Shown piece by piece: positions 11,445 to 55,499 of a DNA stretch of 64,000 bases (the first letter of the stretch is position 1; each line of letters opens with the position of its first letter). Both the position numbers and the translations under genes were made by a program. The stretch comes from a virus: positions 96,766 through 160,765 of the IMG/VR virus record IMGVR_UViG_3300037475_000032; one strand, 5' to 3'. The notes under the pieces were generated by a model, which was not told where the DNA came from, searched no databases, and saw only the letters and a program-made list of their open reading frames with translations.

Positions 11445-14400
11445 ATGTATATGTGGGACCCGAACAGCATCAGTCAGGATCAGTTGCACGAATACCGCAA
11501 CGCCGCTGAATCGGCATGGGGCGATGACACACGTCATCCTGACTTCGTAGGGCACCCAGACCCAAGTGCGGGCCAGTGCTACGTCACGTCCAAGTGGCTC
11601 ACGGGCGAGCTTGGCGGTCATGTTGGGTTGAAGAATGGTCATTACTTCTGGGTCTCACCGGACAAGAGCCACGTCATTGATCTGACCGGCGATCAGTTCT
11701 CTAGTCCACCACCTTCGGGCAGGATGAACTTCCTGGACGGCCAGCCCGTGGATTCAGAGGACGAAGCCTATGAGCCCGAGACACGCGGATGGCGACCAGG
11801 ACCCATCATGTTCAAGCGTGCTAATCACCCGCTCTACAAGGGATTCAGGATCAAGGCCGATCCTCAGCCTCCGCAGGATCAGAGAGATTGGGAAGACCTG
11901 GAACAGTCACCTCGCATCAACGACCGTCTCCAGCGCTTCACTCGTCGTGCGAACGCTGCTCTCACCAATCCCACGAGTCGCACAGCCGATCTCATGGGAA
12001 TCGGGAACCCGATGAGTGAACCGCAGGCAGAAGAGGATCTGAACCAGCGTTACCTTCACGATACAATGAGTGATCTGCAAATGACGCAGGAACCAATCGA
12101 CCGAGAGTACAAGTTCTTCTATGGACACGGACAACTACACGTATCACCCGTTCATTCTCACGACGAACTCCGAGATCACTCTGGGACATCCCCTGACGAG
12201 AACGGACCAATCGCCGTGGGTTACGTTCATGTTCACGGAGGAGATGCTGTTTGGTCTATTGAGACTAACGTTGCCGCTCGCGGACTCGTTCGCGTCCTTA
12301 AGGACTACAGCAAGACTGTGGGTTGGAAATGGAACGGAGTGGTTGGAGGCGACGGAGCACCCATCCATGATGACTTCGGCGCTACGAAGTCTATGTGGTA
12401 CAAGGCCAACGCTGATGGAGAGGTACAGATCGCAGATGGACCTTTCCGAGGAGCCTCCCGCATCGACATCGTTGGCAGGACCGCCCATTATGCTCGATCC
12501 GCGTCTACCAGCAGTTATGGCGATGCTCTCAGAGAATGGGCCGACGACTTCGGATACCGCCTAGCCGAGTACCCAGGCGGCACGGACATGACCGACCGCA
12601 CAAAGAACTGGGAGGACTTGGAGCTTCACAACAACTCCGACCCCGAATGGGACCCGGAGAAGGCATACGACGGAGCGCCTATTGGTCCTCTCACATGCGG
12701 CACATGCGGCTTCGAGGCACCTGACTTCAATACCCTCATCCTCCATCGCAGACTGCACGAGGGAGAGGACGAAGACCGCATCCAGGATGGTCACTTCCCG
12801 ACGCTCAACGACCGTGACGATACGCTACCGCTTAGGCGCAGGAACGTCAACCCTACGGCGTCACCTCTTGCCTCTTTCCGCGAAGCATCAGTGGTGGATG
12901 GCTTCGACCTGTACGCGAGCCTGTGGGGATACGACCGTGACGAGGGATTGCGCTTCTACGGTGGTTACCTGAATGGTCAACTTCTCGGCTACGGGGTCGT
13001 GCGTCCCGGCGATGATGGAGCCGAGGTCGTCATGATCCACTCATCCATCCCCAACGTCGGCATCGGTACGGTACTCGCTGAGAAGATCAAGCAGCACTAC
13101 CCGGTTCTGACCACGCACGCCGATAGTCCCGAGGGCGAACGCCTTGCCAAGCGCATGGGGATGGTCAATGTCGAGGGTCAGCTATACAAGTGGGCCGCAG
13201 GCGAAGAACCGAAGGACATGATCCAGGCCCCCGTCCCGTTTATCTACGACATCCAGCAAGACCACATCACCACGGGTCATCCGGGCATGAAGACATCGGA
13301 CATCATGGGCCAGTTCACGCCCGGTGGTATAGTTGAGGGCTACTACGAGCCGGGCGGCAAGGTGGTCATCAACACGTCCACCAACATGCCGTACAGCACG
13401 TACCACATGATGCAGCTATGGTATTGGACGCACCCACAAATGCAAATCGTCGGCCTTGAACTAGAAGACCAGCAGGGCAAGAGGCAGAAGCTAGCGGCTA
13501 CTGAGATCGGCCCCTACCTCAAGACGCTCGTGGGAACCGACGCCGCTGCATGGAACGCCTACCAGGCGCTACGCAATGCAGGCGGGAAGGTCTATGCCGT
13601 AGGTGGCGCAGTACGCGATGCTCTGCTTGGCAAGGACCCCAAGGATATTGACCTGATGGTCTCCGGCGTTCCGCCCGAGCAGGTCTCTCATGTCCTTGAA
13701 CAGCTTCCTGGCCGCGTAGACTTGACTGGTAAGCGCTTCGGTGTCTACCGCTACAAGACAAAGGGTCAAGAGGTCGAGATTGCTCTGCCACGCGAGGACA
13801 CCTACGATGGTGAGCGTCGCGGTCAGGGCAAGATCACCGTTGATCCTAGCCTTCCGGTTGAGGATGACCTAAGGCGTCGTGACTTTACTGTCAACAGCAT
13901 GGCCGTGGATCTTGACACAGGTAAGCTCATCGACCCATACGGAGGCGAGAAGGATGCCGAGTCCCACACGCTTAGAACCACTCACCCTTCGTCCTTCGAG
14001 GAGGACCCAACTCGCCTTGTACGTGCGCTTGTGGCTTCTTCCCGCCACGGTCTGGTTCCAGACGAGAGGACCCGTCAGGAGATGGCAGAGAACGCATCGC
14101 GCCTCGACCGTGAGTCCCCCGATGCCCTTAAGCAGCAGCTAGACAAGCTGCTTGAAAGCCCCAATCCGGCAGGGGCACTCAGACTAGCCCATGACACAGG
14201 TGTCCTGCGTCATCTATTCCCTGAGGTCGATGCGAACTTCGACTACGATCAGAACAACACGCATCACTCATACTCGCTGGGTGAGCACTCACTGAACGTG
14301 CTCGACAACGCGAGTCGTCTGACTACGGACCCAGATCTTCGTCTCGCTGCCCTGCTCCACGATCAGGGCAAGCCGGACTCGGCATGGGTAGACCCGGAGA

Positions 14401-14936: not shown

Positions 14937-14953
14937 ACCACTCGACACGCCGG

Positions 14954-15348
14954 ATGTGGATAAAGATGACAGACCAAAGAAGTGAGCCTATCCTAATTCC
15001 TCGTCCGCTCAAGCCGGACGTTCTCTGCTTTGGTATCAAGCGAGCCGGACAGACAGTCATCTTCTACAACGAGGATCGTGAGATCCCCGACGCACCCCAT
15101 CCTGACACGATCCCCAAGTTGCCTCAGAGCATCTTCATCATGGAGAACGAATGATGCCCAAGCTGGAGTTTCACGATTACATCGCTATGTGCGAAGATCC
15201 AGAGACGGGTCAGAAAGCCACTTTTCGCTTCCGAGCAAGCTCAGATGCACACGCCGATAGGGAGGCTCGTGATGGCTGGTTTGGCCTTCTAGCACCGCCT
15301 CCTAAGGAGCGCTGGGAAGCATTGAAGGTAGACGTAGCTAGGGTGTAA
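14954..15348 (+). CDS. Two small hypothetical genes (14954-15154, 15151-15348)
   Basis: Coupled ORFs filling the intergenic space. Confidence 0.5.
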
Positions 15349-15356
15349 TACGTGCA

Positions 15357-16466
15357 ATGCCTGTCGCAAATATCCTCGATCCGATCCACGATACCCTAGA
15401 CGCCCGTGTGTGGGATGATCCGGGCGCAGACAAGCCCGTATTGAAGCCCAAGCACCTCCACTGGATCAAGAAGACGATCTACGATGCGCTTGAAAAGGCG
15501 GGCTACACGGATGTCGAGAAGTGGCTGCATCTCGTACTGACCGGTTCGCTTACAACGTACCAGTATTCGGACGAGTCCGACTGTGACGTTTCACTCTTTG
15601 TGGACACGAAGGTCTTCCCCGAGTGGTCGAGGGCAGAGATGATCGGCGTCATGGTAGGAGAGGTCGATGGGACCACGCTACCGGGCACACCTCACCCGAT
15701 GCAGAACTTCGTTGTGCCCTCACACATCAAGCCCCATGACCTTTACAAGAAGGGCTTGCGCTCAGGCTACGACCTAGATACCCAGACGTGGGTCGAGCCG
15801 CCTGAGCATGATCGTGTCCATGACGTAGAGGCTGAGGAGAACGGCTTCTATGCCTACGCACTCCAGATGGCTGACAAGATGGAGCGCCTGTTGAAGTACG
15901 AGCCCGAGAAGGCAGCCGAGTTCTGGCACGCGATCCACAATCGCCGCAGGCGCGACATGGCATCAGGCAAGGGTGACTTCGCTGAGTCGAACATCGTCTA
16001 CAAGTTTCTTGCCAATCGAGGTCTATTCCCGGCCATCTCGGAGGCCACAGGCGAGTACATCGCACATAAGCTAGGAGCTAATAGTGACCCTTCTATTAGC
16101 CCTGAGCTAATGCAGACACATGTCCTCTACAACCCGTTCAATCCCGAGAAGTTTCATCCTCCCGCTCCAGGGCACGAAAAGTCCATGCCGTGGGTCTATG
16201 ACCCTGATACCAAGACCGTTCACCTTGGTCCTCCGCGAGCATACCACTGGGAGTTGATCGAAAGAACACCGGAGCTACGAGGGCAGTATGAAGGAGCATG
16301 GACGAAGCCCGCTATGGGACAGGCGGGGAATATCCATGGGGCGATGTCGTGGCCCGGCCGTAACACTGACTTCATGGGTGAGCAGGTTGACCCCGAGACC
16401 AAGAGATCTATCAATCAAGCACTAGGCGCACCCGAAGAAGATGAGCACGAGTGGAACTTCGCGTAA
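15357..16466 (+). CDS. Pol-beta-superfamily nucleotidyltransferase + C-terminal repeat module
   Basis: LTGSLTTYQYSDESDCDV (GS...DxD); after HKLGA a PWVYDPDTKTVHLGPPRAYH...WNF module. Confidence 0.75.
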   Translation: MPVANILDPIHDTLDARVWDDPGADKPVLKPKHLHWIKKTIYDALEKAGYTDVEKWLHLVLTGSLTTYQYSDESDCDVSLFVDTKVFPEWSRAEMIGVMVGEVDGTTLPGTPHPMQNFVVPSHIKPHDLYKKGLRSGYDLDTQTWVEPPEHDRVHDVEAEENGFYAYALQMADKMERLLKYEPEKAAEFWHAIHNRRRRDMASGKGDFAESNIVYKFLANRGLFPAISEATGEYIAHKLGANSDPSISPELMQTHVLYNPFNPEKFHPPAPGHEKSMPWVYDPDTKTVHLGPPRAYHWELIERTPELRGQYEGAWTKPAMGQAGNIHGAMSWPGRNTDFMGEQVDPETKRSINQALGAPEEDEHEWNFA

Positions 16467-16905
16467 GCGTAAGGGCGTTCTCTTTATAGAACTGCCTGAG
16501 GCTCCCGATGCTCCGCCCGGTACTTGCCGTTGGTGCGGAGCTACGCTTGTGGGGAAGCGAGCCGTCAGTCGTCGCTACTGCTACCCAGATCGTGAGGGGC
16601 GCAATTGCGTCAAAGAGTTCCGTGACTCGATGACGTGGAATCCCCGCCAAGCTCTACGCATCAAGGCGTTTAAACAGGGAGAGCGTGTCCTACGCTGCAT
16701 CGACTGTGGATTCGTTGTGGAGGAACTGCACAGAGGCTCTAGGGCTCGCGTCATTGTCATGCCATGGGAAGCCGATCACGAGATTCCGCTGTGGGATGGA
16801 GGCGAACACACGGTAGCTAATCTGCGCGTGCGTTGTGTCCCCGACCATCGTGCAAAGACCAACCGTGAGAACGCCATCCGTCGTGCTAAGATGGCTGGCA
16901 CATGA
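16441..16905 (+). CDS. HNH endonuclease
   Basis: CRWCG, CIDCG, WEADHEIPLWDGGEH...NL...HRAKT. Confidence 0.85.
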   Translation: MSTSGTSRKRKGVLFIELPEAPDAPPGTCRWCGATLVGKRAVSRRYCYPDREGRNCVKEFRDSMTWNPRQALRIKAFKQGERVLRCIDCGFVVEELHRGSRARVIVMPWEADHEIPLWDGGEHTVANLRVRCVPDHRAKTNRENAIRRAKMAGT

Positions 16906-17357
16906 ACTACTACGCCGCCCGTCAGAGACTCGATAACCAGCGCTACGACTACACGCGCATGAACGATGGAGTAGCCCATCCCGAAGGCTACTGTCGAGAG
17001 AAGGTCATCTGCCCTGAGCAGATAGGCGATACCTTCCTCATCGCCAATCCATGCTCTGAGGAATGTCCCACCTGCCACGGCAAGCAGCGTATCCCTAACC
17101 CCGACTACTGTGGTAGCCATGACACGGCCGAGCAGGCGGAAATCTGCTTCGCCGCGTATATCCTTGACCAGGGCACTAAGCCTGTCGCTTATGGTGACTG
17201 GACAGGATGTGAGATCTGCGACGCACCTACCAAGGACGGCATCATGGCCGTTCATCCATTGGGCCAGATGATGGCTCTATGCGATACCCACCGCACTGGC
17301 GCTGTCTTCGCGGCTCATTCGCCCGAGAAGGTCGGAGAGATCGCAGCGAGTTGGTAA
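16902..17357 (+). CDS. Cys-rich hypothetical protein
   Basis: Several CxxC pairs; ATGA overlap. Confidence 0.65.
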   Translation: MNYYAARQRLDNQRYDYTRMNDGVAHPEGYCREKVICPEQIGDTFLIANPCSEECPTCHGKQRIPNPDYCGSHDTAEQAEICFAAYILDQGTKPVAYGDWTGCEICDAPTKDGIMAVHPLGQMMALCDTHRTGAVFAAHSPEKVGEIAASW

Positions 17358-17914
17358 TGAGCGACCTTCCAACAGAGACAACTCTGCTTCACGGCGGGGA
17401 GGACACATACGAGCAGCGTGGAGGTGAGAGCTTCCGTCGCTGCTCTTACTGTGGTGGTGTGCATCCCCTTGACCTACTCAAGGCACGCGACGAAGGCAAG
17501 ATCGGTAAAGTGGATCGTTCCGTAGATTGGAAGTACGGATGGCCGCACAAGATCTACGTGGACGTGGATGGCTCATATGCCAAGTTCTACAATATCCATA
17601 CGCTTGAGCCTAATCTGAGTGACGAGGAGCGCAAGAAGCTATTCGAATTCGTTGGCTACTCCTTCTCCATGGAGGGCACAAAGATCAAGTGGAAGCGCTG
17701 GGTCTACGATACCCCACCGGCACAGCCCACGAAGGTCTTCCCACCTCTTGCTCAAGCCTTCCTCAACGTACCCGTGACGTTCAACTTCGATCACAACCCA
17801 CGCGGGGAAGTCATCGACGCTCGTGAAGAAGATGGTGGAATCCATGTCACCATGAGGATGGATGATGGCACGATCTTCAATGCCTCTGTCGGCAACCTAA
17901 TCTACGAGGATTGA
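17357..17914 (+). CDS. Hypothetical phage protein
   Basis: RCSYCGGVHP, DWKYGWPHKIY; TAATG coupling. Confidence 0.65.
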   Translation: MSDLPTETTLLHGGEDTYEQRGGESFRRCSYCGGVHPLDLLKARDEGKIGKVDRSVDWKYGWPHKIYVDVDGSYAKFYNIHTLEPNLSDEERKKLFEFVGYSFSMEGTKIKWKRWVYDTPPAQPTKVFPPLAQAFLNVPVTFNFDHNPRGEVIDAREEDGGIHVTMRMDDGTIFNASVGNLIYED

Positions 17915-18432
17915 TGTTCAAGTACGCAGGTGTAGGCTCGCGGTCAACACCTCCCGAGATCCTGAAAGCGATGGATCTCTTTGCTAATGCCATCGCTAGA
18001 GACTCGCTCCTTCGCACGGGCGCAGCCGAGGGAGCAGATCAAGCCTTCGAGTTCGGAGCCGTACTTGGTGGTGGCCGAGTCGAGATTTACCTGCCTTGGA
18101 AGGGCTTCAACGGTCGTCAGGATGGCGAGATCGTGGAGCCCGGTAAGGATGCGCTCGAACTGGCTGAGTACTATCATCCGAACTGGAAGGCGCTCAAGCA
18201 GGGCGCACGCAAGCTCATGGCCCGCAACGGCTATCAGGTGCTCGGACCCAACCTCTATGATCCGGTCGAGATGGTCGTGTGCTGGACGCCGGATGGCTCT
18301 TTGGATGGCAAAGGCTCCAAGGTCGGAGGCACGGGGCAGGCGCTACGCATCGCTGACGACTACGAGATCCCAGTCCTCAATCTCCAGCGCCCCGATCACC
18401 TGGCTGAGATCGAATCCTTCTTCGAGTCTTGA
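17914..18432 (+). CDS. SLOG/DprA-like protein
   Basis: YAGVGSRSTP, LRTGAAEGADQAFE, ARN, VCWTPDG, GGTGQA. Confidence 0.8.
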   Translation: MFKYAGVGSRSTPPEILKAMDLFANAIARDSLLRTGAAEGADQAFEFGAVLGGGRVEIYLPWKGFNGRQDGEIVEPGKDALELAEYYHPNWKALKQGARKLMARNGYQVLGPNLYDPVEMVVCWTPDGSLDGKGSKVGGTGQALRIADDYEIPVLNLQRPDHLAEIESFFES

Positions 18433-34644: not shown

Positions 34645-37600
34645 ATGAATACGCAAGCAAAGACACCAAACGGCTCAGATCGCCTCACAGTGGATGGCTG
34701 GACTGCCGCTACCCCAAGGCGCTGGAAGCATGAGTGGATAGCAGAGAGCCCGCACGAGGCGGGCTCTCAAAATGTCGCTCTAGCTCAAGTATTCAACTCT
34801 TCTCCTGCTAATGCTCTAGCGGCTCATCGTGATCCTTTCGCAGAAGGTCAGGGTTTCCATGTCGCACCACACATAGTATCGCACGAGGGATGGACTGTCA
34901 AGAGCGACGTGCCGAGCGAGCCACCGAACTACAAGCCAGCGGCCAAGCGTTTAAACGCCCCGCACTGCGGCTCATGCAAGATGTACGATCACGGCAAGTG
35001 CTGGGGCTACGGCAACAAGCCCGTGGAGGAGGATTACGTCTGCGACAGCTACTCTCCCTCAGACAATAGTCATCAAGACCAAGCTGACAACCTGCCAAGT
35101 GGCGAGAACGAAGTTGACAGCACGACATCCTCATTTGCAGGGGATTTGGATTGGAAGTTGCCGGTTTTTGACACTTCACCCTCTGAGTCAGGTTGGCGAT
35201 TGGCCGCAAGTCCTGATGAGTTGTTCATCGCACTCAATGTGCCTAAGCCAACAGCCGACAAGATCCACGCTTGGGCCAAGGAACAGGACTGGCCTGAGGG
35301 CACTGAACTAGAGGAGCCAAGCGAGTATCACATCACTCTGCTTTACTCACCGAAGGGACATGAGGAGCACAAGGAGGCGGAGTGGTGGACGACCGATAAC
35401 TCCGACAACGTTGTGGTCAAGAAGCTGGACGAGTTCCCATCCCAAGAGCGTGGTGAGCAGAACGCCTTTGTGCTCCGAGTGGATCGACCCGACGACGAGA
35501 TCAAGATTAGGATGGAAAGGCTACTGGACAAGGCTGAGGAGGAAGGCGTGGAGGTCAACCGCTATCCAGGTGGCAGCAAGCCTCACATCACCATCGCCTA
35601 TGGTCCTAAGCTGCCTAAGGGCATCAAGCCACCTGACATCTCATTCAGCACCGATGAGGCGCACTGCGGTAAGCCAAGGACAAGCTCAGTCGCCAGCGAT
35701 ACGCTTGGCGATCTCGAAGCAGACGTTGGTTCCGGTTGGACCAGTGATGAGTTCGAGGCCCTGATATCCCCAGAGCCCAAGACACATAGCGCCTGGCACG
35801 TAGATGAGGAGGCACAGGAAGCGCACGATCATCTCAACGATGCCGAGCAGCAGTATGATTGGGAGGGCGCAGTATCTCATGACTTTAGGCTAGCAGACTA
35901 CAACGTGCAAGTGCCAGTGGTGACGCCAAACCAAGGTGTCGGGCTCGCAACTCCGCATCAAGTAGGTGACTTGCTCTCAATCCAGAGCGTGGCCCACAAC
36001 TTGCACTACAAGTATCAGCAGAGCGGGCTAGACCCCAACAGCGCACAACAGTATGCCAGTAAGCTGCTCCAAGCGATTGGCTACACGAATCCAGATCAGC
36101 CGACCATAGACGCAGCATTGCAGGCTTGGAAGGCAATGTACCCTGAGGATGCTCGCTCCGCATATGCTCTGCCTGGGGTTGCGACATCAAGTCACGATGC
36201 TGACGGTGGCTTTGGTGACGCTGCCTTGGACTGGACTGATGCTCACACTGCCTCCGCCACTGATGGCGAGGCTGAGAGTCTTGCCCTTCTTGAGTTCAGC
36301 GGCCTGAGTGGGCGTAACAGCGATGTTGCCGGTGATGGCAAGGACGATAGTTTGGGCCATGGCTGGACTCTAGCACACCCCAACCATGATGCCAACCACA
36401 CAAGCAACAAGGACGAACAACAGGCTGGAGTAGAACAGCCTGCGTCTGCCGTCACGGCCGAGCTTGGATGGAATGAGCCCCAGTGCAGTGAGATAGGCGA
36501 GCAGCCAGATCACATAGACCGCCAGAGCAATCATGAAGACCATGATTGGAGAGTAGCAGGTTCGCCCCAGACAATCTTCCAGCCCATCAGGGCGATAGTG
36601 GACCAAGGCGGCCAAGTCCATACGTTCAACGATGGTCATGTCCCGTACTCGCAGTCTAATGGCATCGACCCAAACACGAACCAAGCACATCTCCAGATCC
36701 ATCAGCCTAGCGGAGAGGTGGAGGATTTGTCAGGCGCTCACTCACAGCATGAGCAAACAGTGGCAGACTACTTGAACCAGCAGACAGGGGAAGATCGATA
36801 CCACGCAAGGCCCAATGACATGGATTGGGTGTTCGGGTCGGCGGCAGGCGGCGCTCCTCAAAAATCTCAGAGAGCGTATCAGTCACGAATAGGTGAGGAT
36901 ATGCACGTCCACGAGCCTAAACTACACGCTACAGGAGCCCAAACACTGTCCAACCCCTCCCGTCAGCCTGTCACTCAGGCACGCGCACACGAGAGCGATA
37001 GCCGAGGAGGGTCACCCTCCGATGAGTTGACCAGCTTCCTGTCACACATTCATGAGGGCGATTCATGGGACACGAGACAATGGCCTGATCCATTGAGTGA
37101 CAACGGCACTGGAGGTAATGTGCCTCGTGGTTGCACTTGTCAGTCAGGACACAAGCTCGATTGCCCCGTTCATGGCCTTGAGGCCAATGGTGAATACGAC
37201 ACCATGGAGTGGACTATCCCTGAGGCTTCACCTGTTGGCTATCCACAGGATCAACCGCGCAACTGGCAACAGGCTGAGTCGTCAGTACGTCAGTCAGTAA
37301 GGACTAGGCAAGAGGTTGATGACAATGATGAGCCCAAGCCCAACAGCAAGGCCGACCAAGACAGAGCCAAGCAACGCACCAACCACGGCACAGAAGCCAA
37401 TGAGTATGAGTGGCATCAAGTTCATGCGCCTAGCATAGCACACGACACAAGTCAAGGCGCATCAGCCACACCACTAGCACACACAGCACAGGATGTCAAT
37501 AGCCGTCCGTCCTATAAGGCATTGCTTAGACCTTCGGGCTTAAGACAGTCCATCGAAATCTCAGGAAGTGAAAACGACCTAGAGTGGTACTCAAGTCACG

Positions 37601-40401
37601 ACTCATCTTATGACCTAAGTCACCAGAAGACTTCGGGTCCCATATCTGATGGAACAGGGACGCCAGGCGTGACGGTAGAGGAAGTAGATGCCCCCACTCC
37701 GCTAGCCAACGACGATCCTTGGAACGAGAGCTTCCGTGACCGTCGTCCTTTGCTCTACCATGTGCCGACAGGGAGAGTCCTCATGGGGCCTCCTGGTTCC
37801 GAGCACGGGTCCCTTTACAACCACCTGGGGCGCACTACTCCCGAGTGGCTTCCAGAAGAGGTACACGAAGGCATCATTGGGAAGGGCGGAGTGAAGTTCT
37901 TCGATGACAACTCATCCAATCCCGAAGGCTACCCACAGGCCGCTGCCGATGCGGTCGTTCACCACACAGGGATAGCCGAGGACCCGGAGGTGGACAAGGA
38001 ATACGGCTGGGACTTCAATGGGTCCCATAGGATGGGTGCTCAGGTCATCAATGTGCCCGGCAACGAAGACTTCGATTTCCAAGGAAGGGTCCCGTTGATT
38101 GCGCATGGAGAAAACATCTATGCCGGGACTAACGGAGAGACCCACGATTCGTTGAAGGCCAGGCTCGGAGACAGGCTCCAGGGCGTTCATCCCAACGACA
38201 TCGCTCATGGCGGCATGTTCGTGGACCACAACGCCTCTGAATACGGGATCACTCCGGGATCTTATGAGTGGTTCGATACGAACTTCTTCCAGCCCGGTTC
38301 TCCACACAATCAAGCCGTCGAGGATGAGATCAGGCGAAGGGGCCTGGAGCCCAAGAACCTGGATGACGGATTCACCTTCTCCAAGGTTGCGGCCGTGCCT
38401 GTCCAGTACCACGGGGACATCGATCCATCCGAAGGATATCCTGGATGGGAGGATGGGGATATGTTCGGGGACCCCATTGGATACGCGGGTCGCTGGCCGA
38501 CAGTGGTCCATGACGGCACAGTGCATATCGGGCCTGAACAGTCCACTCATGGACAAGTCAGGCAGAAACTAGGCTTGCCTGCCACTGGCGAGGAGCCCGA
38601 AGGCTGGATCGGACCAAACCCTGAGGCCGAAGAAGACAACCACGATCACGAGGGCGTCGAATTCCTGCCAGGCGAACCCGAGGACGGAGAGGGAGCCCCA
38701 TACGGCTGGTACGGGCACAAGGGCGTGCCTCATCAAAACACAGGCATTACCGAAGCCATGATGAACTACTGGAACACGTTCTTGAGGCATCGAGAGCCTA
38801 CGCCCGGAACCGGCTATGGTCATGGGCCACGCATGTCAGGAGTCAGCGTCCATGAAGTCGGGGAGCCCACAGATAGCGGAACTGAGTGGCACGGGACCCG
38901 TCGTCCTTTCACCTACTTCCCCCACACTCAGGATTTGATCCTTGGGGCACCCGGAGCCGACCATGCAGCGATGCTCTACGCGGACAAGAGGCTCTTTCAG
39001 AAGTACAGGCGACAGCAGCTAGAGCCCGACACGGCGCAGGGCGGCGTCTACAATGACCCGGAGGGCAACAAGGTCGTGGAGTACTACTACGGGACGCCCG
39101 AGGATGAGCATGTCCAGGCCGTTCAGAACGCCCTTGGGGCACAAAGGTCACAGCTAAACGAGTGGCATGTCGGCGATGATGTTCACGACAACCCCGACAA
39201 GACCTGGGACTTCAACTCCAAGATCGCTCAGACAATGTACCACTGGGCTCCGAGGGCAATGCGCGACCAGATCTCCCAACAGGGTCTTAGGGCCGCGTTG
39301 CCTGAGGGTGATGAGTACGTGGACTATGACAACCCAGATGCCTACAAGGGCGTCTACTTGTTCAATCGTGTTCCTGCCTACACACCAGGAGGCTCCAAGG
39401 GCTTCTACGGGGATGATTTGTGGGCCGTGGACACCCATGGCTTGAATCCACAAGTAGATGAGGGCGAGTGGGACGCTTCCATGATTCCTCACGACATCAC
39501 TCCCGATAGGATTCAGTTCCTCAACTCACCAGCACATCGCAAGGCATGGGAACAGCAGGAAGAGGAGCGCTACGGAAAGGCTCCCAGAACGTCACAGGAG
39601 GGTCCTACAGGCGATGAATTGCAGAACATAGAGGATTCACAGCCTCAAGAGCGTCAGGGCCTTATACCGCTCTCCTGGGAGCCCGGATTGCACGGCAAGG
39701 GCTTGTACTTCCCCGAGGCCGACAAGCTCACCACCTGGAGTGATCCACGACACCACTCAGATGTCTGGTACGACGATGAGCACTACCCACTCCCCGGCGT
39801 AGCTCACCACCTGGATATTCAGCCTAACGGCCAGTACGTGGATCAGGGCGGCTTCAACCGAGAGATGGAAGACAACAACGAAGGTCTGGACGAAGTTGAC
39901 CTTGCTCAGGCCCTCAAGCGTCACGATCCGAGGCTCACTGACCGTGATCCTGGACACGAGTGGTCATTTGCCAAGGTTGCGCACGCACTCGGCTGGCAGC
40001 CGGGAGAACACGGAAAGGGACTTATCCACGACGGAGAAGTTCATACCTGGGGAGTCGGGGACGATCCAGACGGCCAGCCTACGCATCCCGAATATGCACA
40101 GCAGAACTTCAACATGAACGAAGGTCAGTACGCGAATCACCAGATGTTCGAGTCGGCCTTCCAAATGGACCCCAAGGGCAACGTCAACATCTACGAGGAT
40201 CATCCCGATACCATCAACCAGGTTGCTCAGGCCGTGGAGTCAGCCGACCCGAGACTGAAAGCCAATGTGCTCCATGACTACGACTGGGACTTTGGGAACG
40301 TAGAGCCTATGAAGACAGAGCCCGACATGGACGAACACGGCAACCTACATGGCGTGCAGTTCACCAACGATGAGCCCGGAGTCTCTACAGTCGATGCGTG
40401 A
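34645..40401 (+). CDS. 1918-aa polyprotein: 4-Cys domain, Acb1-like 2H phosphoesterase, ~7 repeat modules, ART/Tpt1-like domain
   Basis: HITLLYS and HITIAY 2H motifs; MYHWAP...ISQQGL...GVYLF; linkers RLA/RTS/RVA/KTS/RMG/KVA/RMS/KIA, often preceded by W-x-F. Confidence 0.75.
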   Translation: MNTQAKTPNGSDRLTVDGWTAATPRRWKHEWIAESPHEAGSQNVALAQVFNSSPANALAAHRDPFAEGQGFHVAPHIVSHEGWTVKSDVPSEPPNYKPAAKRLNAPHCGSCKMYDHGKCWGYGNKPVEEDYVCDSYSPSDNSHQDQADNLPSGENEVDSTTSSFAGDLDWKLPVFDTSPSESGWRLAASPDELFIALNVPKPTADKIHAWAKEQDWPEGTELEEPSEYHITLLYSPKGHEEHKEAEWWTTDNSDNVVVKKLDEFPSQERGEQNAFVLRVDRPDDEIKIRMERLLDKAEEEGVEVNRYPGGSKPHITIAYGPKLPKGIKPPDISFSTDEAHCGKPRTSSVASDTLGDLEADVGSGWTSDEFEALISPEPKTHSAWHVDEEAQEAHDHLNDAEQQYDWEGAVSHDFRLADYNVQVPVVTPNQGVGLATPHQVGDLLSIQSVAHNLHYKYQQSGLDPNSAQQYASKLLQAIGYTNPDQPTIDAALQAWKAMYPEDARSAYALPGVATSSHDADGGFGDAALDWTDAHTASATDGEAESLALLEFSGLSGRNSDVAGDGKDDSLGHGWTLAHPNHDANHTSNKDEQQAGVEQPASAVTAELGWNEPQCSEIGEQPDHIDRQSNHEDHDWRVAGSPQTIFQPIRAIVDQGGQVHTFNDGHVPYSQSNGIDPNTNQAHLQIHQPSGEVEDLSGAHSQHEQTVADYLNQQTGEDRYHARPNDMDWVFGSAAGGAPQKSQRAYQSRIGEDMHVHEPKLHATGAQTLSNPSRQPVTQARAHESDSRGGSPSDELTSFLSHIHEGDSWDTRQWPDPLSDNGTGGNVPRGCTCQSGHKLDCPVHGLEANGEYDTMEWTIPEASPVGYPQDQPRNWQQAESSVRQSVRTRQEVDDNDEPKPNSKADQDRAKQRTNHGTEANEYEWHQVHAPSIAHDTSQGASATPLAHTAQDVNSRPSYKALLRPSGLRQSIEISGSENDLEWYSSHDSSYDLSHQKTSGPISDGTGTPGVTVEEVDAPTPLANDDPWNESFRDRRPLLYHVPTGRVLMGPPGSEHGSLYNHLGRTTPEWLPEEVHEGIIGKGGVKFFDDNSSNPEGYPQAAADAVVHHTGIAEDPEVDKEYGWDFNGSHRMGAQVINVPGNEDFDFQGRVPLIAHGENIYAGTNGETHDSLKARLGDRLQGVHPNDIAHGGMFVDHNASEYGITPGSYEWFDTNFFQPGSPHNQAVEDEIRRRGLEPKNLDDGFTFSKVAAVPVQYHGDIDPSEGYPGWEDGDMFGDPIGYAGRWPTVVHDGTVHIGPEQSTHGQVRQKLGLPATGEEPEGWIGPNPEAEEDNHDHEGVEFLPGEPEDGEGAPYGWYGHKGVPHQNTGITEAMMNYWNTFLRHREPTPGTGYGHGPRMSGVSVHEVGEPTDSGTEWHGTRRPFTYFPHTQDLILGAPGADHAAMLYADKRLFQKYRRQQLEPDTAQGGVYNDPEGNKVVEYYYGTPEDEHVQAVQNALGAQRSQLNEWHVGDDVHDNPDKTWDFNSKIAQTMYHWAPRAMRDQISQQGLRAALPEGDEYVDYDNPDAYKGVYLFNRVPAYTPGGSKGFYGDDLWAVDTHGLNPQVDEGEWDASMIPHDITPDRIQFLNSPAHRKAWEQQEEERYGKAPRTSQEGPTGDELQNIEDSQPQERQGLIPLSWEPGLHGKGLYFPEADKLTTWSDPRHHSDVWYDDEHYPLPGVAHHLDIQPNGQYVDQGGFNREMEDNNEGLDEVDLAQALKRHDPRLTDRDPGHEWSFAKVAHALGWQPGEHGKGLIHDGEVHTWGVGDDPDGQPTHPEYAQQNFNMNEGQYANHQMFESAFQMDPKGNVNIYEDHPDTINQVAQAVESADPRLKANVLHDYDWDFGNVEPMKTEPDMDEHGNLHGVQFTNDEPGVSTVDA
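35686..35880 (-). CDS. Nested antisense membrane peptide 1 (64 aa)
   Basis: TGC-TAGCCT-N6-ATG; MRYCALPIILLLGIVEMIVRFLCLLIYVPGAMCLGLWG... Confidence 0.6.
   Translation of the reverse strand: MRYCALPIILLLGIVEMIVRFLCLLIYVPGAMCLGLWGYQGLELITGPTGTNVCFEIAKRIAGD
36187..36360 (-). CDS. Nested antisense small beta-rich protein 2 (57 aa)
   Basis: TGC-TAGAGT-N6-ATG; MAQTIVLAITGNIAVTPTQAAELKKGKTLSLAISGGGSVSISPVQGSVTKATVSIVT. Confidence 0.6.
   Translation of the reverse strand: MAQTIVLAITGNIAVTPTQAAELKKGKTLSLAISGGGSVSISPVQGSVTKATVSIVT
36370..36543 (-). CDS. Nested antisense two-TM peptide 3 (57 aa)
   Basis: TGC-TACTCT-N6-ATG; MVFMIALAVYVIWLLAYLTALGLI-PSKLGRDGRRR-LFYSSLLFVLVACVVGIMVGVC, with a positive-inside loop. 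Confidence 0.65.
   Translation of the reverse strand: MVFMIALAVYVIWLLAYLTALGLIPSKLGRDGRRRLFYSSLLFVLVACVVGIMVGVC
37294..37425 (-). CDS. Nested antisense membrane peptide 4 (43 aa)
   Basis: TGC-TATGCT-N6-ATG; MNLMPLILIGFCAVVGALLGSVLVGLAVGLGLIIVINLLPSPY. Confidence 0.6.
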   Translation of the reverse strand: MNLMPLILIGFCAVVGALLGSVLVGLAVGLGLIIVINLLPSPY

Positions 40402-40608: not shown

Positions 40609-42234
40609 TTAAACCTCGACCGTCTGTTGTCGAGGCTTGTTCACTGCATCCGGGAACGATGTAAGCTGATACGAGAAAACGTCAGGATTGTCGCCTCTGG
40701 GGAAGATGCGACCCTCGAAGATCTGCAAGTCGTTGATGACTTCGGCTCCGCCAGGCTGGAGGATCAACTGTGTCACGTCCCCGACCGTGTTTCTGATGAC
40801 TTCTGTCTTCCCAAACGCCTGCGGAGTCTCCGCAAGGTTGTTCTGGATGATCTGACGAGCTTCTCCTGTGACAAGTGTCGGAGGCGCAGGGGTTTCTTCC
40901 GTCGTCACGAGTTGCGGATTCGAGTACGGGATGAGCAGTGTGTCGGTTCCGAGCACCCAGATGAGTCGCCCCATCGTGTGGATAGCGACGGCAAACGCCG
41001 CATCCGTGGCAATCGCATTGTCGGAGGTGTGTCGATTGAAGGTACGAACACGAGTTGCTGCATCCGTCAAAGTAGCTGTATCGACAGCCGTACGGGATGT
41101 GAACGTGACGTGTCGCGCAACATCGGTCGAGACGGCTTTGTCCGCTCCTCTGACGCTCAGGTTGAGCAGGCGATGGGCCGTGTCCGAAACTGTTGCGCTG
41201 TCGCTAGCATTTCGTCCGCCGATGTGAATGTGTCGGGTCGCAGCGTCCATGGACAACGCGGTCTCTGCGGTGCTGCGCAGAAGTGCGAGGATGCGATGTG
41301 ACGTATCCGCTACACCCGATGTATCGGATGCGCTACGGTGACGACTCGACGTACGGGTAGCGGCATCGATACTGACTGCCAAATCGGCCGCTGCACGGTG
41401 CAATGCCTTACGGACTACGGTTGCATCGGTAGCAGTACTGGAATCCGCTAGGAGGCGCGTGAAGGCCAGCATACGGGATGCTAGATCAATGGTGACTACC
41501 GAGTCGGCTCCTCCGCGTGTGAAGCGCTTCCCGGCTTCCGTAACTACGTCCGTCTCGGCGGCAGTGTCGGCAGTTGTGCGAATGAAGTGGAGAAACGCCC
41601 TCGTGGCCGCATCGGTGGCTGCCGCATTGTCTGTGCCCGTGCGTGGGTAGGTGACCGTGCGCCCCGTGTTGGCATCTACGGTAGTGAGTACATCTGAGGC
41701 GCTACGTGTGTGCGAGGCGAACCAAGTTGCGGCATCCGCTGTGGCCGACGCATCGGCTGTGTTCTTGAAGTAGTGAATCCCAAACGTCGGGGCATCGGTC
41801 TCGACGGCGTTATCCGATGGGTGACGAATGAGGTTGAGGACACGGGACGTAGCATCGACTGAGGCAGCCGGGTCGTAGAAGATGCCGCCTGGGTACACTT
41901 CGTTTCCAGGGAACAAGGTTTCCGAGGGGAAGAGACCATTGATGACACCACGGGCGAAGTGCTGGATCTTCGTGGCTGCGTCCGTGGTGACGGAGTTATC
42001 CGCCCCTGTGCGGTTGTGGACGATTTCGTTCTGAGTAGCGACATCAACCGATACCGAAGCATCGGAGGTTGTGCGAGCGACGCTCAGGAGGTGAACACCG
42101 ACATCTGTGTCAACGGCATTATCGGCACCAGTGACCGTGACGGTGATGAGTCCCGCCTTGCCCGCCGACTGGAAGCTGTAAGGCCCTCTGCCAACATCCT
42201 GCCTACCGATGAAGCCACGACCGAAACGAGGCAT
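40609..42234 (-). CDS. Repetitive tail/fibre-like structural protein
   Basis: Repeats of R-x3-D-x5-D-A-A-T-R; GLFPSETLFPG motif. Confidence 0.7.
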   Translation of the reverse strand: MPRFGRGFIGRQDVGRGPYSFQSAGKAGLITVTVTGADNAVDTDVGVHLLSVARTTSDASVSVDVATQNEIVHNRTGADNSVTTDAATKIQHFARGVINGLFPSETLFPGNEVYPGGIFYDPAASVDATSRVLNLIRHPSDNAVETDAPTFGIHYFKNTADASATADAATWFASHTRSASDVLTTVDANTGRTVTYPRTGTDNAAATDAATRAFLHFIRTTADTAAETDVVTEAGKRFTRGGADSVVTIDLASRMLAFTRLLADSSTATDATVVRKALHRAAADLAVSIDAATRTSSRHRSASDTSGVADTSHRILALLRSTAETALSMDAATRHIHIGGRNASDSATVSDTAHRLLNLSVRGADKAVSTDVARHVTFTSRTAVDTATLTDAATRVRTFNRHTSDNAIATDAAFAVAIHTMGRLIWVLGTDTLLIPYSNPQLVTTEETPAPPTLVTGEARQIIQNNLAETPQAFGKTEVIRNTVGDVTQLILQPGGAEVINDLQIFEGRIFPRGDNPDVFSYQLTSFPDAVNKPRQQTVEV

Positions 42235-50057: not shown

Positions 50058-52540
50058 TACGCCTTACCTGCGTTCTCCTGCAACTGCTCCCATACTTCCG
50101 GTGTGGATAGATGAAGTGACTGAGTAGCGTGTTGCATGATGGTCTGTCCGGGTTCACCCTGGACATGCTCACCCGTCTGGGGATGGGTGAACCAAGGTGC
50201 TCGTACCTGAGCCGCAATCTTGGAGATCGTTGGCACGTACTCGCCGTAGGGGATCTGGTTCTTCGGGTAGTTGGGCGCGATGTTCTGATCCCAGCTTTCC
50301 CCCACTTGATCCCTGAGCGGCTTGGTGTTTTCCCACCAGTCAGGTAGCTTAGACTCCTGCCCCTGTAGGCCAGGGTTGAGCTTGGCAGCCCAGTCAATGG
50401 ACTCGTGCGGGAGCGGGTCGAGCACCTTGAGCCCAGAGTGATCTTGATGCGATCCTTCGCCCGTGCGTCGATTGTCCCACATGCCCCACTGGAAGGCTCC
50501 TAGCGGAACGTGGCTGTAGCCCGCAGCGTCACGCCCGGTCTGTAGCTCGCGCTCGAACTTGAAGTAGTCACGGTTGTTCATCTCCTTGTCGTAGTTGTGG
50601 CCCAACACAGCCATCATGTGAACGTCGATGGTTGCCAACTGCGACGTGACCGGCTGGAGCAACAGCCAAGCAAACGAGCAGACCTTCGGACCCACTCCCG
50701 ATACTCCCATCTGGAGAACGGCTGCGCGGAAGTGGTGGCCCGTTCCGTCGTGTTCATGCACGTCTTCCAGGGCAGCCTTGAGGATCGCGTCTGCGTGCGA
50801 CGAGATCTGTGAGATGGCCTTGAGGTGGCTTCCCATCCATGCCCCATAGCGACCTGCCCTCACAGGCTCCTGTGGGCCTTCCTCCGGGGCGTCGAATAGC
50901 TGGTCCTGGGAAACCCTCGCTGCGAAGTCCAACTGCGGCTGAAAGTCCTTGATGTACGTCTGGAGACGTTTCGCTAGAGCCTCGTTTGCACGTCGCTCGA
51001 TTTCGTCCGTCGAGCGTTGCTTCTTCTTGTCCACGTCTTCGCGCATGATGCGATTCTGCTCCTCAGTCTGCCAGTCGAAGACGAGATCCTTTGCGCGTTG
51101 TGCAGCGGCCGGATAACCCGCCTGCGGGTTCATCTGGAAGATGATGTTCTCAAACGGCTTGAGGAACTTGGCATACGGCATGTGCGCGTAGCGCTCACCC
51201 TCGCCGAAGCGAGCGACGTTCCAGGATTGACGCTTCTGCTCCAGCGTGTTCCAGTAGGTAGCCGGATCGGTGGCTCCTGCCGGGACACTCTGTAGATCCT
51301 GGTAGTGGATGGTGTTCCAGCGCAAGTCCTTCCTGGGGCTCAGGAGCACGGCCCTAAAGGCGTTCACGATGGCCTGCTTCATGCGTTCGTAGTCGGGCTT
51401 GCCCTCACCCGTCGTCAACTGCGCCCACTCGGTATCGATGAGTCGAGCGTTGTCCACGGTCGCTTGCGCCTGTAGAGGATCGCCGTGGTCAAGGTAGGCG
51501 TTAGGTGACTGCGCCTGTACCCCCGATGACCACTGAGCGTTCGGGTCCGTGTTCCCTTCTACACTCCCAGCGTGTATTCCCGTACTCGGGAAGTAGCCAC
51601 TCGGTTCGGTCTGGAACATGTTACCCACCCCATAGTCCGAGTATTCGTGGGGGGGCACGTTATCCTTCGGCAACCCGACGCCAGGTGACTGCGGCAGACC
51701 GGGCATAGCAACCGGGGCGACAGACTGTGAAGGGTGAACACCTTGGGCGGCAGGACCGACACCCTCAGCGCTCTGTGCTGGTTCAGTGAACTGCGGGAAT
51801 AGCGCCACCTTCTGCGGCCCGAAGGCACGGTAGTAGGCGGCGTATCCGGTCTGCGCAATGCACTCCGTAAAGAGGGCCTTCTGAGCGTTTGCACTCAATA
51901 GCGGGAAGTGAGCGGCGCAGGCACGATTCTCGCCTTCCCAGCCGAAGTCACCTCCGCTGACGGCGTGTCCGAGAACATCGTGGACGGTGCGGAAGGCGAC
52001 GTTCTGCTCCGGGGTCCAGATAGGATGCTCAGAGTGTGCCCTAGAGACAACGAAGTGCTTGTGCTTGTGGATGTCTTCGGCCATCTCCTGAGCGTTCGCG
52101 TAGGGCTCGGGGTTGTCCGTGACCTCGATCTTGAGTTGTTTCGCCAAGACGGCCGCACGCTTCACCGAATCGTCGGCTAGCTCCTTAAAGGCTTGGGCGG
52201 CCTGCGGTTCGTACGTCGGAGCCGCTGCGTAGGCTTCGGCAATGGGCCTTAGCTGGTCCGTGAACGTGGTTTTCCACATCCCGACCTTCCACATCGCCGT
52301 CGTACGCATGTGGTTCTTGCGCGTGACTGCGATGAGCAGATTGGCAACAGCGGTCTTGTCTGTGTTGCCCGTCTTCTCTACCTCCTCGCCGTGCGGACTC
52401 TGAGCCGTGGCGACGAAGCACTCACGCTTGTTGTCCCAGCCGACCTTCTTGACACTCCAGCCAAGATCACCGATCTTGGTGTACAGTTCGGGAAGGGGAG
52501 TAGTTATGCCCTGAAAGGCGCTCGTGACATCGACCGGCAT
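50057..52540 (-). CDS. Polyprotein: FRTVHDVLGH metal-binding domain + HhH DNA-glycosylase-like domain + repeat module
   Basis: NVAFRTVHDVLGH...GE...ALFTE; GVGPKVCSF...ATIDVHM...YFKFE; linkers RTTA/RVS/KIA. Confidence 0.65.
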   Translation of the reverse strand: MPVDVTSAFQGITTPLPELYTKIGDLGWSVKKVGWDNKRECFVATAQSPHGEEVEKTGNTDKTAVANLLIAVTRKNHMRTTAMWKVGMWKTTFTDQLRPIAEAYAAAPTYEPQAAQAFKELADDSVKRAAVLAKQLKIEVTDNPEPYANAQEMAEDIHKHKHFVVSRAHSEHPIWTPEQNVAFRTVHDVLGHAVSGGDFGWEGENRACAAHFPLLSANAQKALFTECIAQTGYAAYYRAFGPQKVALFPQFTEPAQSAEGVGPAAQGVHPSQSVAPVAMPGLPQSPGVGLPKDNVPPHEYSDYGVGNMFQTEPSGYFPSTGIHAGSVEGNTDPNAQWSSGVQAQSPNAYLDHGDPLQAQATVDNARLIDTEWAQLTTGEGKPDYERMKQAIVNAFRAVLLSPRKDLRWNTIHYQDLQSVPAGATDPATYWNTLEQKRQSWNVARFGEGERYAHMPYAKFLKPFENIIFQMNPQAGYPAAAQRAKDLVFDWQTEEQNRIMREDVDKKKQRSTDEIERRANEALAKRLQTYIKDFQPQLDFAARVSQDQLFDAPEEGPQEPVRAGRYGAWMGSHLKAISQISSHADAILKAALEDVHEHDGTGHHFRAAVLQMGVSGVGPKVCSFAWLLLQPVTSQLATIDVHMMAVLGHNYDKEMNNRDYFKFERELQTGRDAAGYSHVPLGAFQWGMWDNRRTGEGSHQDHSGLKVLDPLPHESIDWAAKLNPGLQGQESKLPDWWENTKPLRDQVGESWDQNIAPNYPKNQIPYGEYVPTISKIAAQVRAPWFTHPQTGEHVQGEPGQTIMQHATQSLHLSTPEVWEQLQENAGKA

Positions 52541-55079: not shown

Positions 55080-55481
55080 TCATAGATAGTCGCCCTCGCG
55101 TTGCGGCGGAACGTCTGTTGGCATCCCGTGATGACGGATATGCGGCAGAGGCTTGTGCGGCTGCTCGCCCTTGAGGGCAGCGATGACCTGCTTGATGACG
55201 AACGGGTCCTCCAGCTTCTTGTGATCGTCCGTCGTGATCCTGAATCCGCCCTGGATCTTGTAGGCATAGCCGTTCAGGCGGCCAGGGTGCGTGACTTCGG
55301 GGGCAAGCTCGTCGTGAGTCTTGGCCTCCGCACGCGACGTGTCCTCGTTGTGATGGACCGTGACGTGGCCGCTCTCGGGATCGAAGACCCAGAGCCAGTA
55401 GATCGGCCCGTCGTAGGGCTCGTGCAGGATCGCTGTGCGATGCGGCAGAAGCTCTTGGAAGTCTGGAGCAATGTCGCCCAT
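55080..55481 (-). CDS. Stand-alone copy of the repeat module
   Basis: HRTA, then WLWVFDPESGHVTVH...THDEL...GYAY. Confidence 0.6.
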   Translation of the reverse strand: MGDIAPDFQELLPHRTAILHEPYDGPIYWLWVFDPESGHVTVHHNEDTSRAEAKTHDELAPEVTHPGRLNGYAYKIQGGFRITTDDHKKLEDPFVIKQVIAALKGEQPHKPLPHIRHHGMPTDVPPQREGDYL

Positions 55482-55499
55482 ACCCCAAAGAATACCAGA

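What the first reader, a model, noticed from the sequence alone, without database searches (positions are those of the whole stretch)
37741..40300. Unnamed ~100-aa module repeated about 12 times across five genes
Seen: a core of P-hydrophobic-Y/H-x(3-5)-hydrophobic-x-hydrophobic-G-x(4-5)-H followed by a G-hydrophobic strand, often ending in W-x-F. Copies: RRPLLYHVPTGRVLMGPPGSEH (37741), RVPLIAHGENIYAGTNGETH (~38086), RWPTVVHDGTVHIGPEQSTH (~38491), RRPFTYFPHTQDLILGAPGADH (~38899), two W[EQ]PGxHGKGL variants (~39676, ~39994), PWVYDPDTKTVHLGPPRAYH (15357 C-terminus), PFIYDIQQDHITTGHPG and KFFYGHGQLHVSPVHSH (11445), WVFDPESGHVTVH...TH (55080 stand-alone) and PWFTHPQTGEHVQGEPG (50057). The copies are diverged at DNA level. 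Inference: a capsid-targeting tag, or a His-dependent effector/sponge family under diversifying selection.
Basis: partly seen in the sequence, partly recalled or inferred. Interest (0 to 1): 0.8.

Follow-up and report, generated by a model that had tools for sequence, protein, structure and literature searches.

The report
New repeated module in giant phage proteins
The repeats are real: a roughly 90-residue protein domain, absent from the domain and structure libraries searched, recurs seven times in this phage's 1918-residue multi-enzyme protein, in four to five other genes of the phage, and hundreds of times in giant proteins of related uncultured phages; its job is still unknown.

Summary
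Observation largely confirmed. ORF 34645-40401 (1918 aa, a polyvalent phage protein) carries four 'type A' modules (RRP-x-x-Y...G-x5-H) and two 'type B' modules (W-x-P-G-x-x-G-K-G...H-x-W...DPRL). I also found a seventh, B-like copy at aa 646-733.

- **Other copies:** the gene 15357 C-terminus, one of two claimed copies in 11445, and stand-alone 55083-55484 are supported. The 50057 copy is a 45-residue remnant. The copy at aa 223 of 11445 is not supported. A further B copy lies outside the window, beside the head protease and capsid genes.
- **One superfamily:** A and B are related by profile comparison (23.7 against a null of 8.2±1.9). Both have predicted order β-β-α-α-β-β-α, with the invariant His opening helix 1. 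Both have the same weak top structural neighbour.
- **No known match:** Pfam, PHROGs, NCBIfam, PDB and BFVD give nothing significant.
- **Spread:** 138 representative clusters, and 551 A plus 282 B modules in 162 metagenomic proteins, up to 34 per protein.
- **Selection:** orthologous modules are 82-97% identical in the close relatives P0012-P0014 (two outliers, about 50%), so the diversifying-selection idea is not supported.

This module family was not seen on other DNA in the scan.

The parts
34645..40401 (+). 1918-aa polyvalent protein gene that holds seven modules
   Evidence: ORF. Orthologues P0012-P0015 share the modules but shuffle, add or drop them. Weak Acb1/2H match at aa 193-322 (21 bits, below the cut-off of 27), and PHROG RNA ligase (2H-type) at 2.7e-5.
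36580..36843 (+). Newly found diverged B-like module (aa 646-733), ending in DWVF
   Evidence: hhalign against the B profile: prob 78%, P = 1.8e-5 over 59 columns. Score 25.1 against a permuted null of 9.6±2.4, 0/60.
37741..38016 (+). Type A module A1 (aa 1033-1124)
   Evidence: Enriched A HMM E = 6e-16. 92-97% identical in orthologues.
38086..38379 (+). Type A module A2 (aa 1148-1245), the most diverged A copy
   Evidence: Enriched A HMM E = 2e-3, covering the N-terminal 70 columns. hhalign against A1 gives P = 0.008.
38491..38820 (+). Type A module A3 (aa 1283-1392), with a long acidic insert and no W-x-F end
   Evidence: Enriched A HMM E = 2e-6.
38899..39213 (+). Type A module A4 (aa 1419-1523), the one modelled
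   Evidence: Enriched A HMM E = 1e-20. AlphaFold2 mean pLDDT 81.6, core 85-94, order β-β-α-α-β-β-α.
39226..39594 (+). Unrelated inserted domain 'X' (YHWAPR...); not a module
   Evidence: No A or B HMM match. It sits at other positions in P0013 and P0014, and lies between two B modules in P0022.
39676..39969 (+). Type B module B1 (aa 1678-1775)
   Evidence: Enriched B HMM E = 5e-10. AlphaFold2 core pLDDT 70-83, same order of elements.
39994..40293 (+). Type B module B2 (aa 1784-1883)
   Evidence: Enriched B HMM E = 4e-22. AlphaFold2 core pLDDT 77-87.
40294..40398 (+). Conserved C-terminal tail peptide (TEP-M-x-x-EP ... HGVQ-x-x-ND)
   Evidence: The tail HMM hits 21 sequences (20 distinct proteins; the window's own appears twice) of 247-2630 aa, always within 2 residues of the C-terminus. 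Predicted disordered.
16188..16463 (+). Type A module at the C-terminus of gene 15357 (aa 278-369)
   Evidence: Enriched A HMM E = 2e-19. Many orthologues carry the same module.
13227..13514 (+). His-less A-like module in gene 11445 (aa 595-690), upstream of the CCA-adding enzyme
   Evidence: hhalign against A: prob 96%, P = 8e-9 over 34 columns. Score 33.1 against a null of 9.5±1.8, 0/60.
12087..12419 (+). Claimed copy at aa 223 of gene 11445: not supported
   Evidence: hhalign against A gives P = 0.0085, and 6 of 60 column permutations reach the score.
50060..50212 (-). Vestigial A remnant (β-hairpin only, no His) at the C-terminus of gene 50057
   Evidence: HMM E = 0.79 alone. It lies where orthologues P0058 and P0140 have complete A modules.
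55083..55484 (-). Stand-alone 134-aa protein, distant relative of type A
   Evidence: Ten homologues, P0001-P0010. hhalign against A gives P = 2e-4 over 74 columns. Score 26.0 against a null of 10.2±1.9, 0/60. Not modelled.

Best explanation
**What is shown.** The repeats are copies of one old superfamily of small α/β domains, about 90 residues long. It has two main sequence families, A and B, plus a stand-alone type. None of the protein-family or structure libraries I searched holds it. Each domain has two β-hairpins and three helices (β-β-α-α-β-β-α). An invariant histidine is the first residue of helix 1. About half the domains are followed by a flexible acidic linker ending in W-x-F and then small residues. 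The domains make up about a third of giant multi-enzyme ('polyvalent') proteins in a clade of uncultured 100-170-kb phages.

**What I infer.** The most likely role is non-catalytic. The modules would act as protein-protein docking or assembly units. They would hold very different cargo enzymes (2H phosphoesterase, GNAT, nucleotidyltransferases, CCA-adding enzyme) in a common assembly, probably the virion. The W-x-F linkers would then be docking or processing sites.
For: **Family is real.**
- HMM E-values run from 1e-20 to 2e-3 for the window copies.
- There are 138 representative clusters at E <= 1e-3.
- There are 551 A and 282 B modules in 162 proteins, up to 34 in one protein.

**A, B and the stand-alone type are related.**
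- Profile scores sit far above column-permuted nulls. A against B: 23.7 against 8.2±1.9, 0/150. A against the stand-alone type: 26.0 against 10.2±1.9, 0/60.
- The predicted order of elements is the same, and the His opens helix 1 in both A and B.
- The two independent models share 8 of their top 50 chains out of 48,161, including the same rank-1 chain.

**Probably non-catalytic.** Only one polar residue is invariant.

**A chassis rather than an effector.**
- The modules sit beside many unrelated enzymes, and they are inserted, lost or reordered between orthologues.
- Orthologous copies are under purifying selection.

**Virion link.**
- The B-bearing protein at genome 8510-12466 lies directly upstream of the head maturation protease and major head protein.
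- The 1918-aa gene follows a tail-fibre gene. Its relative in L008 lies near a minor-tail gene.

**Linker motif.** W-x-F occurs 614 times against 210±11 expected, and 370 of these are at module ends. The motif falls in low-confidence, unstructured tails.
Against: - Nothing shows directly that any of these proteins is in the virion. No MuF or other known head-attachment domain was found.
- Most module-bearing genes of this phage lie among nucleotide and RNA metabolism genes, not head genes.
- The capsid and protease/scaffold proteins carry no W-x-F site, so cutting by the head protease is unsupported.
- An absolutely invariant His is unusual for a purely structural domain.
- Up to 34 copies per protein is more than a tag needs.
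- The structure of the stand-alone type was not modelled, and the A and B models could not be superposed directly.
Confidence: 0.35

Rival explanations
1. The modules are passive spacers or 'beads'. They would be small, independently folding units that keep neighbouring enzyme domains soluble and apart, or let a very long protein unfold and pass through the tail channel. They would have no specific partner.
For: - The modules make up about 35% of the proteins, are acidic like the rest of the protein, and occur between unrelated enzymes.
- The copy number is highly variable.
Against: - The His, Gly, Trp and Lys positions are 94-100% conserved over hundreds of copies that are otherwise 20-29% identical.
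- Proteins made of modules alone, and a stand-alone 134-aa form with its own conserved family, are hard to explain for a pure spacer.
Confidence: 0.2
2. Each module is a ligand-binding pocket, for example for host immune signalling nucleotides. The giant proteins would then act as high-capacity sponges working beside an Acb1-like phosphodiesterase.
For: - There is an invariant His, plus conserved basic residues (RR in A; K/R in the GKG of B) and aromatic residues (Y in A; W in B) near the first hairpin.
- The host protein has a 2H/Acb1-like domain.
- Stand-alone and module-only proteins exist, as known sponges do.
Against: - No structural match to any solved protein reached significance, so known sponge structures did not match either.
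- The modules also accompany enzymes unrelated to signalling, and a head-module protein.
- No binding data exist.
Confidence: 0.15
3. The module is a small enzyme that uses the invariant His, for example a phosphohistidine-phosphatase-like hydrolase.
Against: - No sequence match to any solved chain at E <= 10 for the A profile.
- Only one polar residue is invariant.
- His-less copies persist in genes 11445 and 50057.
- Dozens of copies of one enzyme in a single chain is implausible.
Confidence: 0.07
4. The similarity is a chance recurrence of a short motif in a His/Trp/Gly/Pro-rich protein.
For: - Pairwise BLAST between window copies is weak, E 3e-4 to above 1 in a tiny database.
- One claimed copy failed the test.
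Against: - Profile E-values go down to 1e-20.
- There are 138 outside clusters.
- The permutation nulls are never reached.
- The predicted structures are concordant.
Confidence: 0.01

Closest known systems
Polyvalent proteins of phages and conjugative elements, with their uncharacterised 'LPD' domains (Iyer, Burroughs, Anand, de Souza, Aravind 2017, PMC5512222)
   Same: - Giant phage proteins that string domains of unrelated activity.
- They include a 2H phosphoesterase, GNAT and Pol-β-type nucleotidyltransferases.
- They also hold many uncharacterised non-catalytic domains, some of which occur solo.
   Different: - No Pfam family of any kind, LPD families included, matched the modules.
- No MuF or other known virion-attachment domain was found.
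- A single module family repeated up to 34 times per protein is not described in the abstract or the LPD section of that paper, the only parts I read.
Human phosphohistidine phosphatase PHPT1 (PDB 2nmm; Janus/Ocnus family)
   Same: It is the best structural neighbour of both the A4 and the B2 models. It is a small α/β sandwich of similar size.
   Different: - No sequence-profile match.
- I treat it as a shared general arrangement, not membership.
Gelsolin / ADF-H (cofilin) domains
   Same: - They recur in the weak hit lists of both models.
- They are also about 100-residue α/β units used in tandem arrays.
   Different: - No sequence similarity was detected (identity 6-18% in the structural alignments).
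Repeated cut-site linkers in other phage polyproteins seen in this scan (e1-5950660, peptide GFASRG)
   Same: A short conserved peptide recurs at module boundaries of a giant phage polyvalent protein.
   Different: - The motif differs (W-x-F followed by small residues).
- Here it follows only about half of the modules.
- No protease is linked to it, and the capsid and scaffold lack it.

Membership tests
Polyvalent proteins (Iyer et al. 2017) | Two or more domains of disparate biochemical activity in one polypeptide of a phage or plasmid | tested here: met
   - 2H/Acb1-like domain at aa 193-322, with both H-x-T motifs visible.
- An unrelated X domain is also present.
- Orthologues add GNAT, per the JGI names.
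- The genome is a complete phage record.
Polyvalent proteins (Iyer et al. 2017) | Delivery with the DNA: virion association, shown by a virion domain such as MuF or by head / type IV secretion gene context | tested here: inconclusive
   - No MuF match.
- The gene lies after a tail-fibre gene.
- Another B-bearing gene lies next to the head protease and capsid genes.
- No proteomics are available.
Any Pfam-A / PHROGs / NCBIfam family | Profile match of the module above threshold | tested here: not met
   - No Pfam match at E <= 5.
- No PHROG match at E <= 0.1.
- No NCBIfam match at E <= 0.1.
- No Pfam family is common to 21 module-rich giant proteins.
Janus/Ocnus phosphohistidine phosphatase (PHPT1) | Shared fold at a convincing level, and a sequence-profile relationship | tested here: inconclusive
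   [not shown]
Gelsolin / ADF-H | Shared fold at a convincing level | tested here: inconclusive
   [not shown]
Acb1 / 2H phosphoesterase (host protein, aa 193-322, not the module) | Pfam match above the gathering score, and two H-x-T/S motifs | tested here: inconclusive
   21 bits against a cut-off of 27. HITLLY and HITIAY are present in the sequence. PHROG RNA ligase (2H-type) scores 2.7e-5.

The most novel reading that the evidence does not exclude
The module is a new fold whose invariant His pocket binds a small molecule, such as host immune signalling nucleotides. Arrays of 7 to 34 modules would then form very high-capacity sponges, fused to enzymes that destroy or repair the same targets and delivered with the phage DNA.
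Probability: 0.1. Interest if true: 0.85.

Novelty: new variant of a known kind. Interest (0 to 1): 0.55.

Why it matters
- A domain that fills about a third of hundreds of giant phage proteins, yet has no entry in Pfam, PHROGs, NCBIfam, the PDB or BFVD, is a clear gap in phage annotation.
- Naming it would let these proteins be parsed into modules and cargo, which exposes their enzyme payloads.
- If the modules prove to be a generic virion-loading chassis or a ligand sponge, that would explain how this phage clade deploys dozens of counter-defence and RNA-repair enzymes from a few genes.

Tried and rejected
**Searches that found nothing**
- Megablast and tblastn against 50,697 phage records.
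- IMG/VR pattern scans with single proteins. A scan with the B alignment found one locus, L008.
- The metagenome scan returned only three distant loci matched through the Zn-ribbon, and none held modules.
- The ESM Atlas gave no usable lead.
- Pfam capsid and protease families did not ring in the genome. PHROGs did find the head protease and major head protein.
- A search of the L008 genome with the A profile found nothing, which the tool itself calls uninformative.

**Methods that failed or were unavailable**
I could therefore not fetch DNA of the orthologues, compute dN/dS or survey contexts.
- A first HMM iteration drifted to 300 positions and was discarded.
- A combined multi-module alignment for AlphaFold2 was rejected, because MAFFT placed the A modules on the B modules.
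- A mis-indexed permutation script was rerun.

**Ideas rejected**
- Nucleic-acid binding: the modules have a pI of about 5.
- Cell-wall binding: the cargo enzymes act inside the cell.
- DUF7701 as the module: it does not overlap any module in P0039.
- W-x-F as a head-protease site: it is left open only weakly, because the capsid and scaffold lack it.
Full report
**Setting.** The window is the last 64 kb of a complete 160,765-bp uncultured phage record with direct terminal repeats. The finding lies in the C-terminal half of one ORF, 34645-40401 (+), of 1918 aa. The gene follows RIIA/RIIB genes and a tail-fibre gene. Pfam finds only a sub-threshold Acb1/2H phosphoesterase match at aa 193-322. 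PHROGs calls the same stretch an RNA ligase of the 2H type. Four orthologues of 1936-2226 aa (P0012-P0015) come from 18-121-kb metagenomic contigs.

Reading the orthologues side by side shows discrete units that are kept, dropped, inserted or reordered between phages. They fall into two sequence types:
- Type A: R-R-P-h-h-Y ... h-h-h-G-x-x-G-x-x-H ... W-x-F. In the window these are A1 (aa 1033-1124), A2 (1148-1245), A3 (1283-1392) and A4 (1419-1523).
- Type B: W-x-P-G-x-x-G-K-G ... H-x-W ... P-x-H ... I-x-P-x-G ... D-P-R-L ... W-x-F. In the window these are B1 (1678-1775) and B2 (1784-1883).

Pairwise BLAST among the window copies is weak. Small-profile hhalign already links A1-A4-A5 (P about 1e-6) and the B types (1e-7 to 1e-17), but not A to B. 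At the DNA level only motif-sized repeats remain.

**Family size.**
- A profile of five window copies, searched against 1.84 billion representative proteins, found 138 clusters at E <= 1e-3 and 51 at E <= 1e-10. Many are giant proteins with up to 13 matched stretches.
- A profile of three B copies found 26 proteins of 241-1977 aa.
- I iterated fixed-length HMMs on these 164 proteins. This gave 551 A and 282 B modules in 162 proteins, covering about 35% of their residues. One 4942-aa protein has 10 A and 24 B modules.
- All members I looked up are metagenomic 'hypothetical proteins'.

- A1 6e-16, A2 2e-3, A3 2e-6, A4 1e-20, B1 5e-10, B2 4e-22.
- The C-terminus of gene 15357 scores 2e-19.
- The copy at aa 598 of gene 11445 matches the first 34 columns (hhalign prob 96%, P = 8e-9) and has lost the His.
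- The claimed copy at aa 223 of that gene is not supported.
- The copy at the end of gene 50057 is a 45-residue remnant without the His. Alone it scores E = 0.79, but it sits where orthologues P0058 and P0140 have full A modules.
- The stand-alone 134-aa protein (55083-55484, minus strand) has ten homologues. It aligns to the A profile over 74 columns (P = 2e-4).
- New copy 1: a B-like module at aa 646-733 of the big protein (P = 1.8e-5).
- New copy 2: a B module in a 1319-aa protein at genome 8510-12466, outside the window (E = 6e-16).

**Are A, B and the stand-alone type one superfamily?** Enriched profile-profile scores were compared with nulls made by permuting the columns of one profile:
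- A against B: 23.7 local and 18.6 global, against nulls of 8.2±1.9 and 2.7±2.1 (0 of 150).
- A against the stand-alone type: 26.0 against 10.2±1.9 (0 of 60).
- B against the stand-alone type: not significant.

The global A-B alignment is collinear from the first strand to the terminal W-x-F.

AlphaFold2 results:
- A4, with 22 aligned modules, gave mean pLDDT 81.6 (core 85-94). The elements are β10-15, β20-23, α30-35, α38-44, β54-60, β66-71 and α77-87.
- B1-B2-tail gave module cores of 70-87, with the same order of elements in each module.
- In both A4 and B2 the invariant His is the first residue of helix 1.

I could not superpose the models directly. However, the two independent searches of 48,161 chains share 8 of their top 50 entries, including the same rank-1 chain (2nmm_A), where chance predicts about 0.05. 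I take A and B to be homologous (about 0.8) and the stand-alone type to be a distant A relative (about 0.65).

**What is it like?** Nothing known.
- No Pfam, PHROG or NCBIfam family matches the modules.
- No Pfam family is common to 21 module-rich proteins.
- The A profile found no PDB sequence at E <= 10. The B profile found only five non-significant matches, best E 0.39.
- Foldseek finds nothing at E <= 0.001 in the PDB or BFVD. The best values are 0.11, 0.28 and 0.018.

**Conservation and selection.**
- In 398 A modules, His is 100%, Gly 94% and Pro 90% conserved.
- In 236 B modules, two Trp are 95-99%, three Gly 97-98%, Lys/Arg 99% and His 94% conserved.
- Against the close relatives P0012-P0014, orthologous modules are 82-97% identical, apart from two outliers (A4 in P0012 53%; B2 in P0013/P0014 61% and 49%). 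The whole proteins are 73-79% identical.
- Against the distant P0015 (43% overall) the modules are 47-52% identical.
- Paralogues in one protein are 20-29% identical. The copies are therefore old and under purifying selection, not diversifying selection.
- The modules are acidic (median pI about 5), like the whole proteins.

**The W-x-F end.**
- W-x-F occurs 614 times in the 162 proteins, against 210±11 in shuffles. 370 of these lie at module ends, after about half of the modules.
- The context is acidic/Pro residues, then W, then D/H/N/K, then F, then G/S/A/T, S/A/K, A/V/T and A.
- The motif lies in low-confidence, unstructured tails of the models.
- In the window protein, looser versions (W/F-x-L/V/F followed by A/G/S/N) mark ten domain boundaries.
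- The phage's protease/scaffold and major head proteins lack such a site. Cutting by the head protease is therefore not supported. It stays open whether the motif is a docking or a processing site.

**Architecture and context.**
- Twenty distinct proteins of 247-2630 aa end in the same tail peptide, always at the extreme C-terminus (one search lists 21 hits, two of them the window's own protein).
- The smallest are just B-B-tail. Others insert an enzyme domain between the two B modules. There are also 3xA, 2xA and single-A proteins. The modules therefore have a role of their own.
- Elsewhere they accompany a CCA-adding enzyme, a domain with a G-S...D-x-D motif that looks like a nucleotidyltransferase (inferred from the sequence alone), an H-E-x-x-H peptidase-like domain (P0080), and 2H and GNAT domains.
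- In this genome the single-B protein lies directly upstream of the head protease and major head protein. The big gene follows a tail-fibre gene. Its relative in a 170-kb phage (L008) lies near a minor-tail gene. The other carriers lie among nucleotide and RNA metabolism genes.

**Interpretation.** The protein fits the 'polyvalent protein' class of Iyer et al. 2017 (PMC5512222), which lists many uncharacterised accessory domains. These modules are not among the Pfam families. My preferred reading is a non-catalytic docking or assembly unit of virion-associated polyvalent proteins (0.35). The rivals are a passive spacer (0.2), a ligand-binding sponge (0.15), a small His enzyme (0.07) and chance (0.01). 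The rest is left open. Shown: the family, its spread, its predicted topology and its conservation. Inferred: everything about function.

**Limits.**
- Only two structure predictions were allowed, so the stand-alone type was not modelled.
- The models could not be superposed on each other.

Noticed in passing
window 40294-40398 (aa 1884-1918): A conserved C-terminal peptide (TEP-M-x-x-EP ... HGVQ-x-x-ND) ends 20 distinct proteins of 247-2630 aa, always at the extreme C-terminus. It could be a docking or sorting signal.
   Followed up: partly
window 34645-40401, boundaries at aa 184, 414, 574, 635, 728, 1122, 1243, 1521, 1773, 1881: The motif [W/F]-x-[F/L/V] followed by A/G/S/N marks ten domain boundaries. 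Family-wide, W-x-F is threefold enriched and concentrated at module ends.
   Followed up: partly
genome 8510-12466 (outside the window; L004:111-4067): A 1319-aa protein with several Zn-ribbons, Gly/Ala-rich stretches and one B module lies directly upstream of the head protease(/scaffold) gene 13860-16190 and the major head protein gene 16886-18004.
   Followed up: partly
window 15357-16100 (gene 15357, aa 1-236): The N-terminal domain carries a G-S ... D-x-D pattern typical of small Pol-β-type nucleotidyltransferases. It is fused to an A module and widely conserved (P0064, P0107, P0108, P0112 and others). Pfam gave no match.
   Followed up: no
P0080 (278 aa, metagenomic): An H-E-L-T-H (HExxH) zincin-like domain is fused to a single A module. 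It is a candidate processing peptidase for these polyproteins.
   Followed up: no
window 39226-39594 (aa 1528-1650): The domain starting YHWAPR moves between positions in orthologues and sits between two B modules in P0022. No Pfam, PHROG or NCBIfam match. Another first-stage note calls it ART/Tpt1-like.
   Followed up: no
window 36580-36843: The newly found seventh module overlaps the stretch where another report of this scan describes antisense mini-genes. Constraint on both strands would fall on a folded domain, not only on linkers.
   Followed up: no
window 40609-42234 (-): A 541-aa protein built of about 20 repeats of a T-D-A-A-T-R-like unit, with no PHROG match, lies next to the big gene on the other strand.
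   Followed up: no
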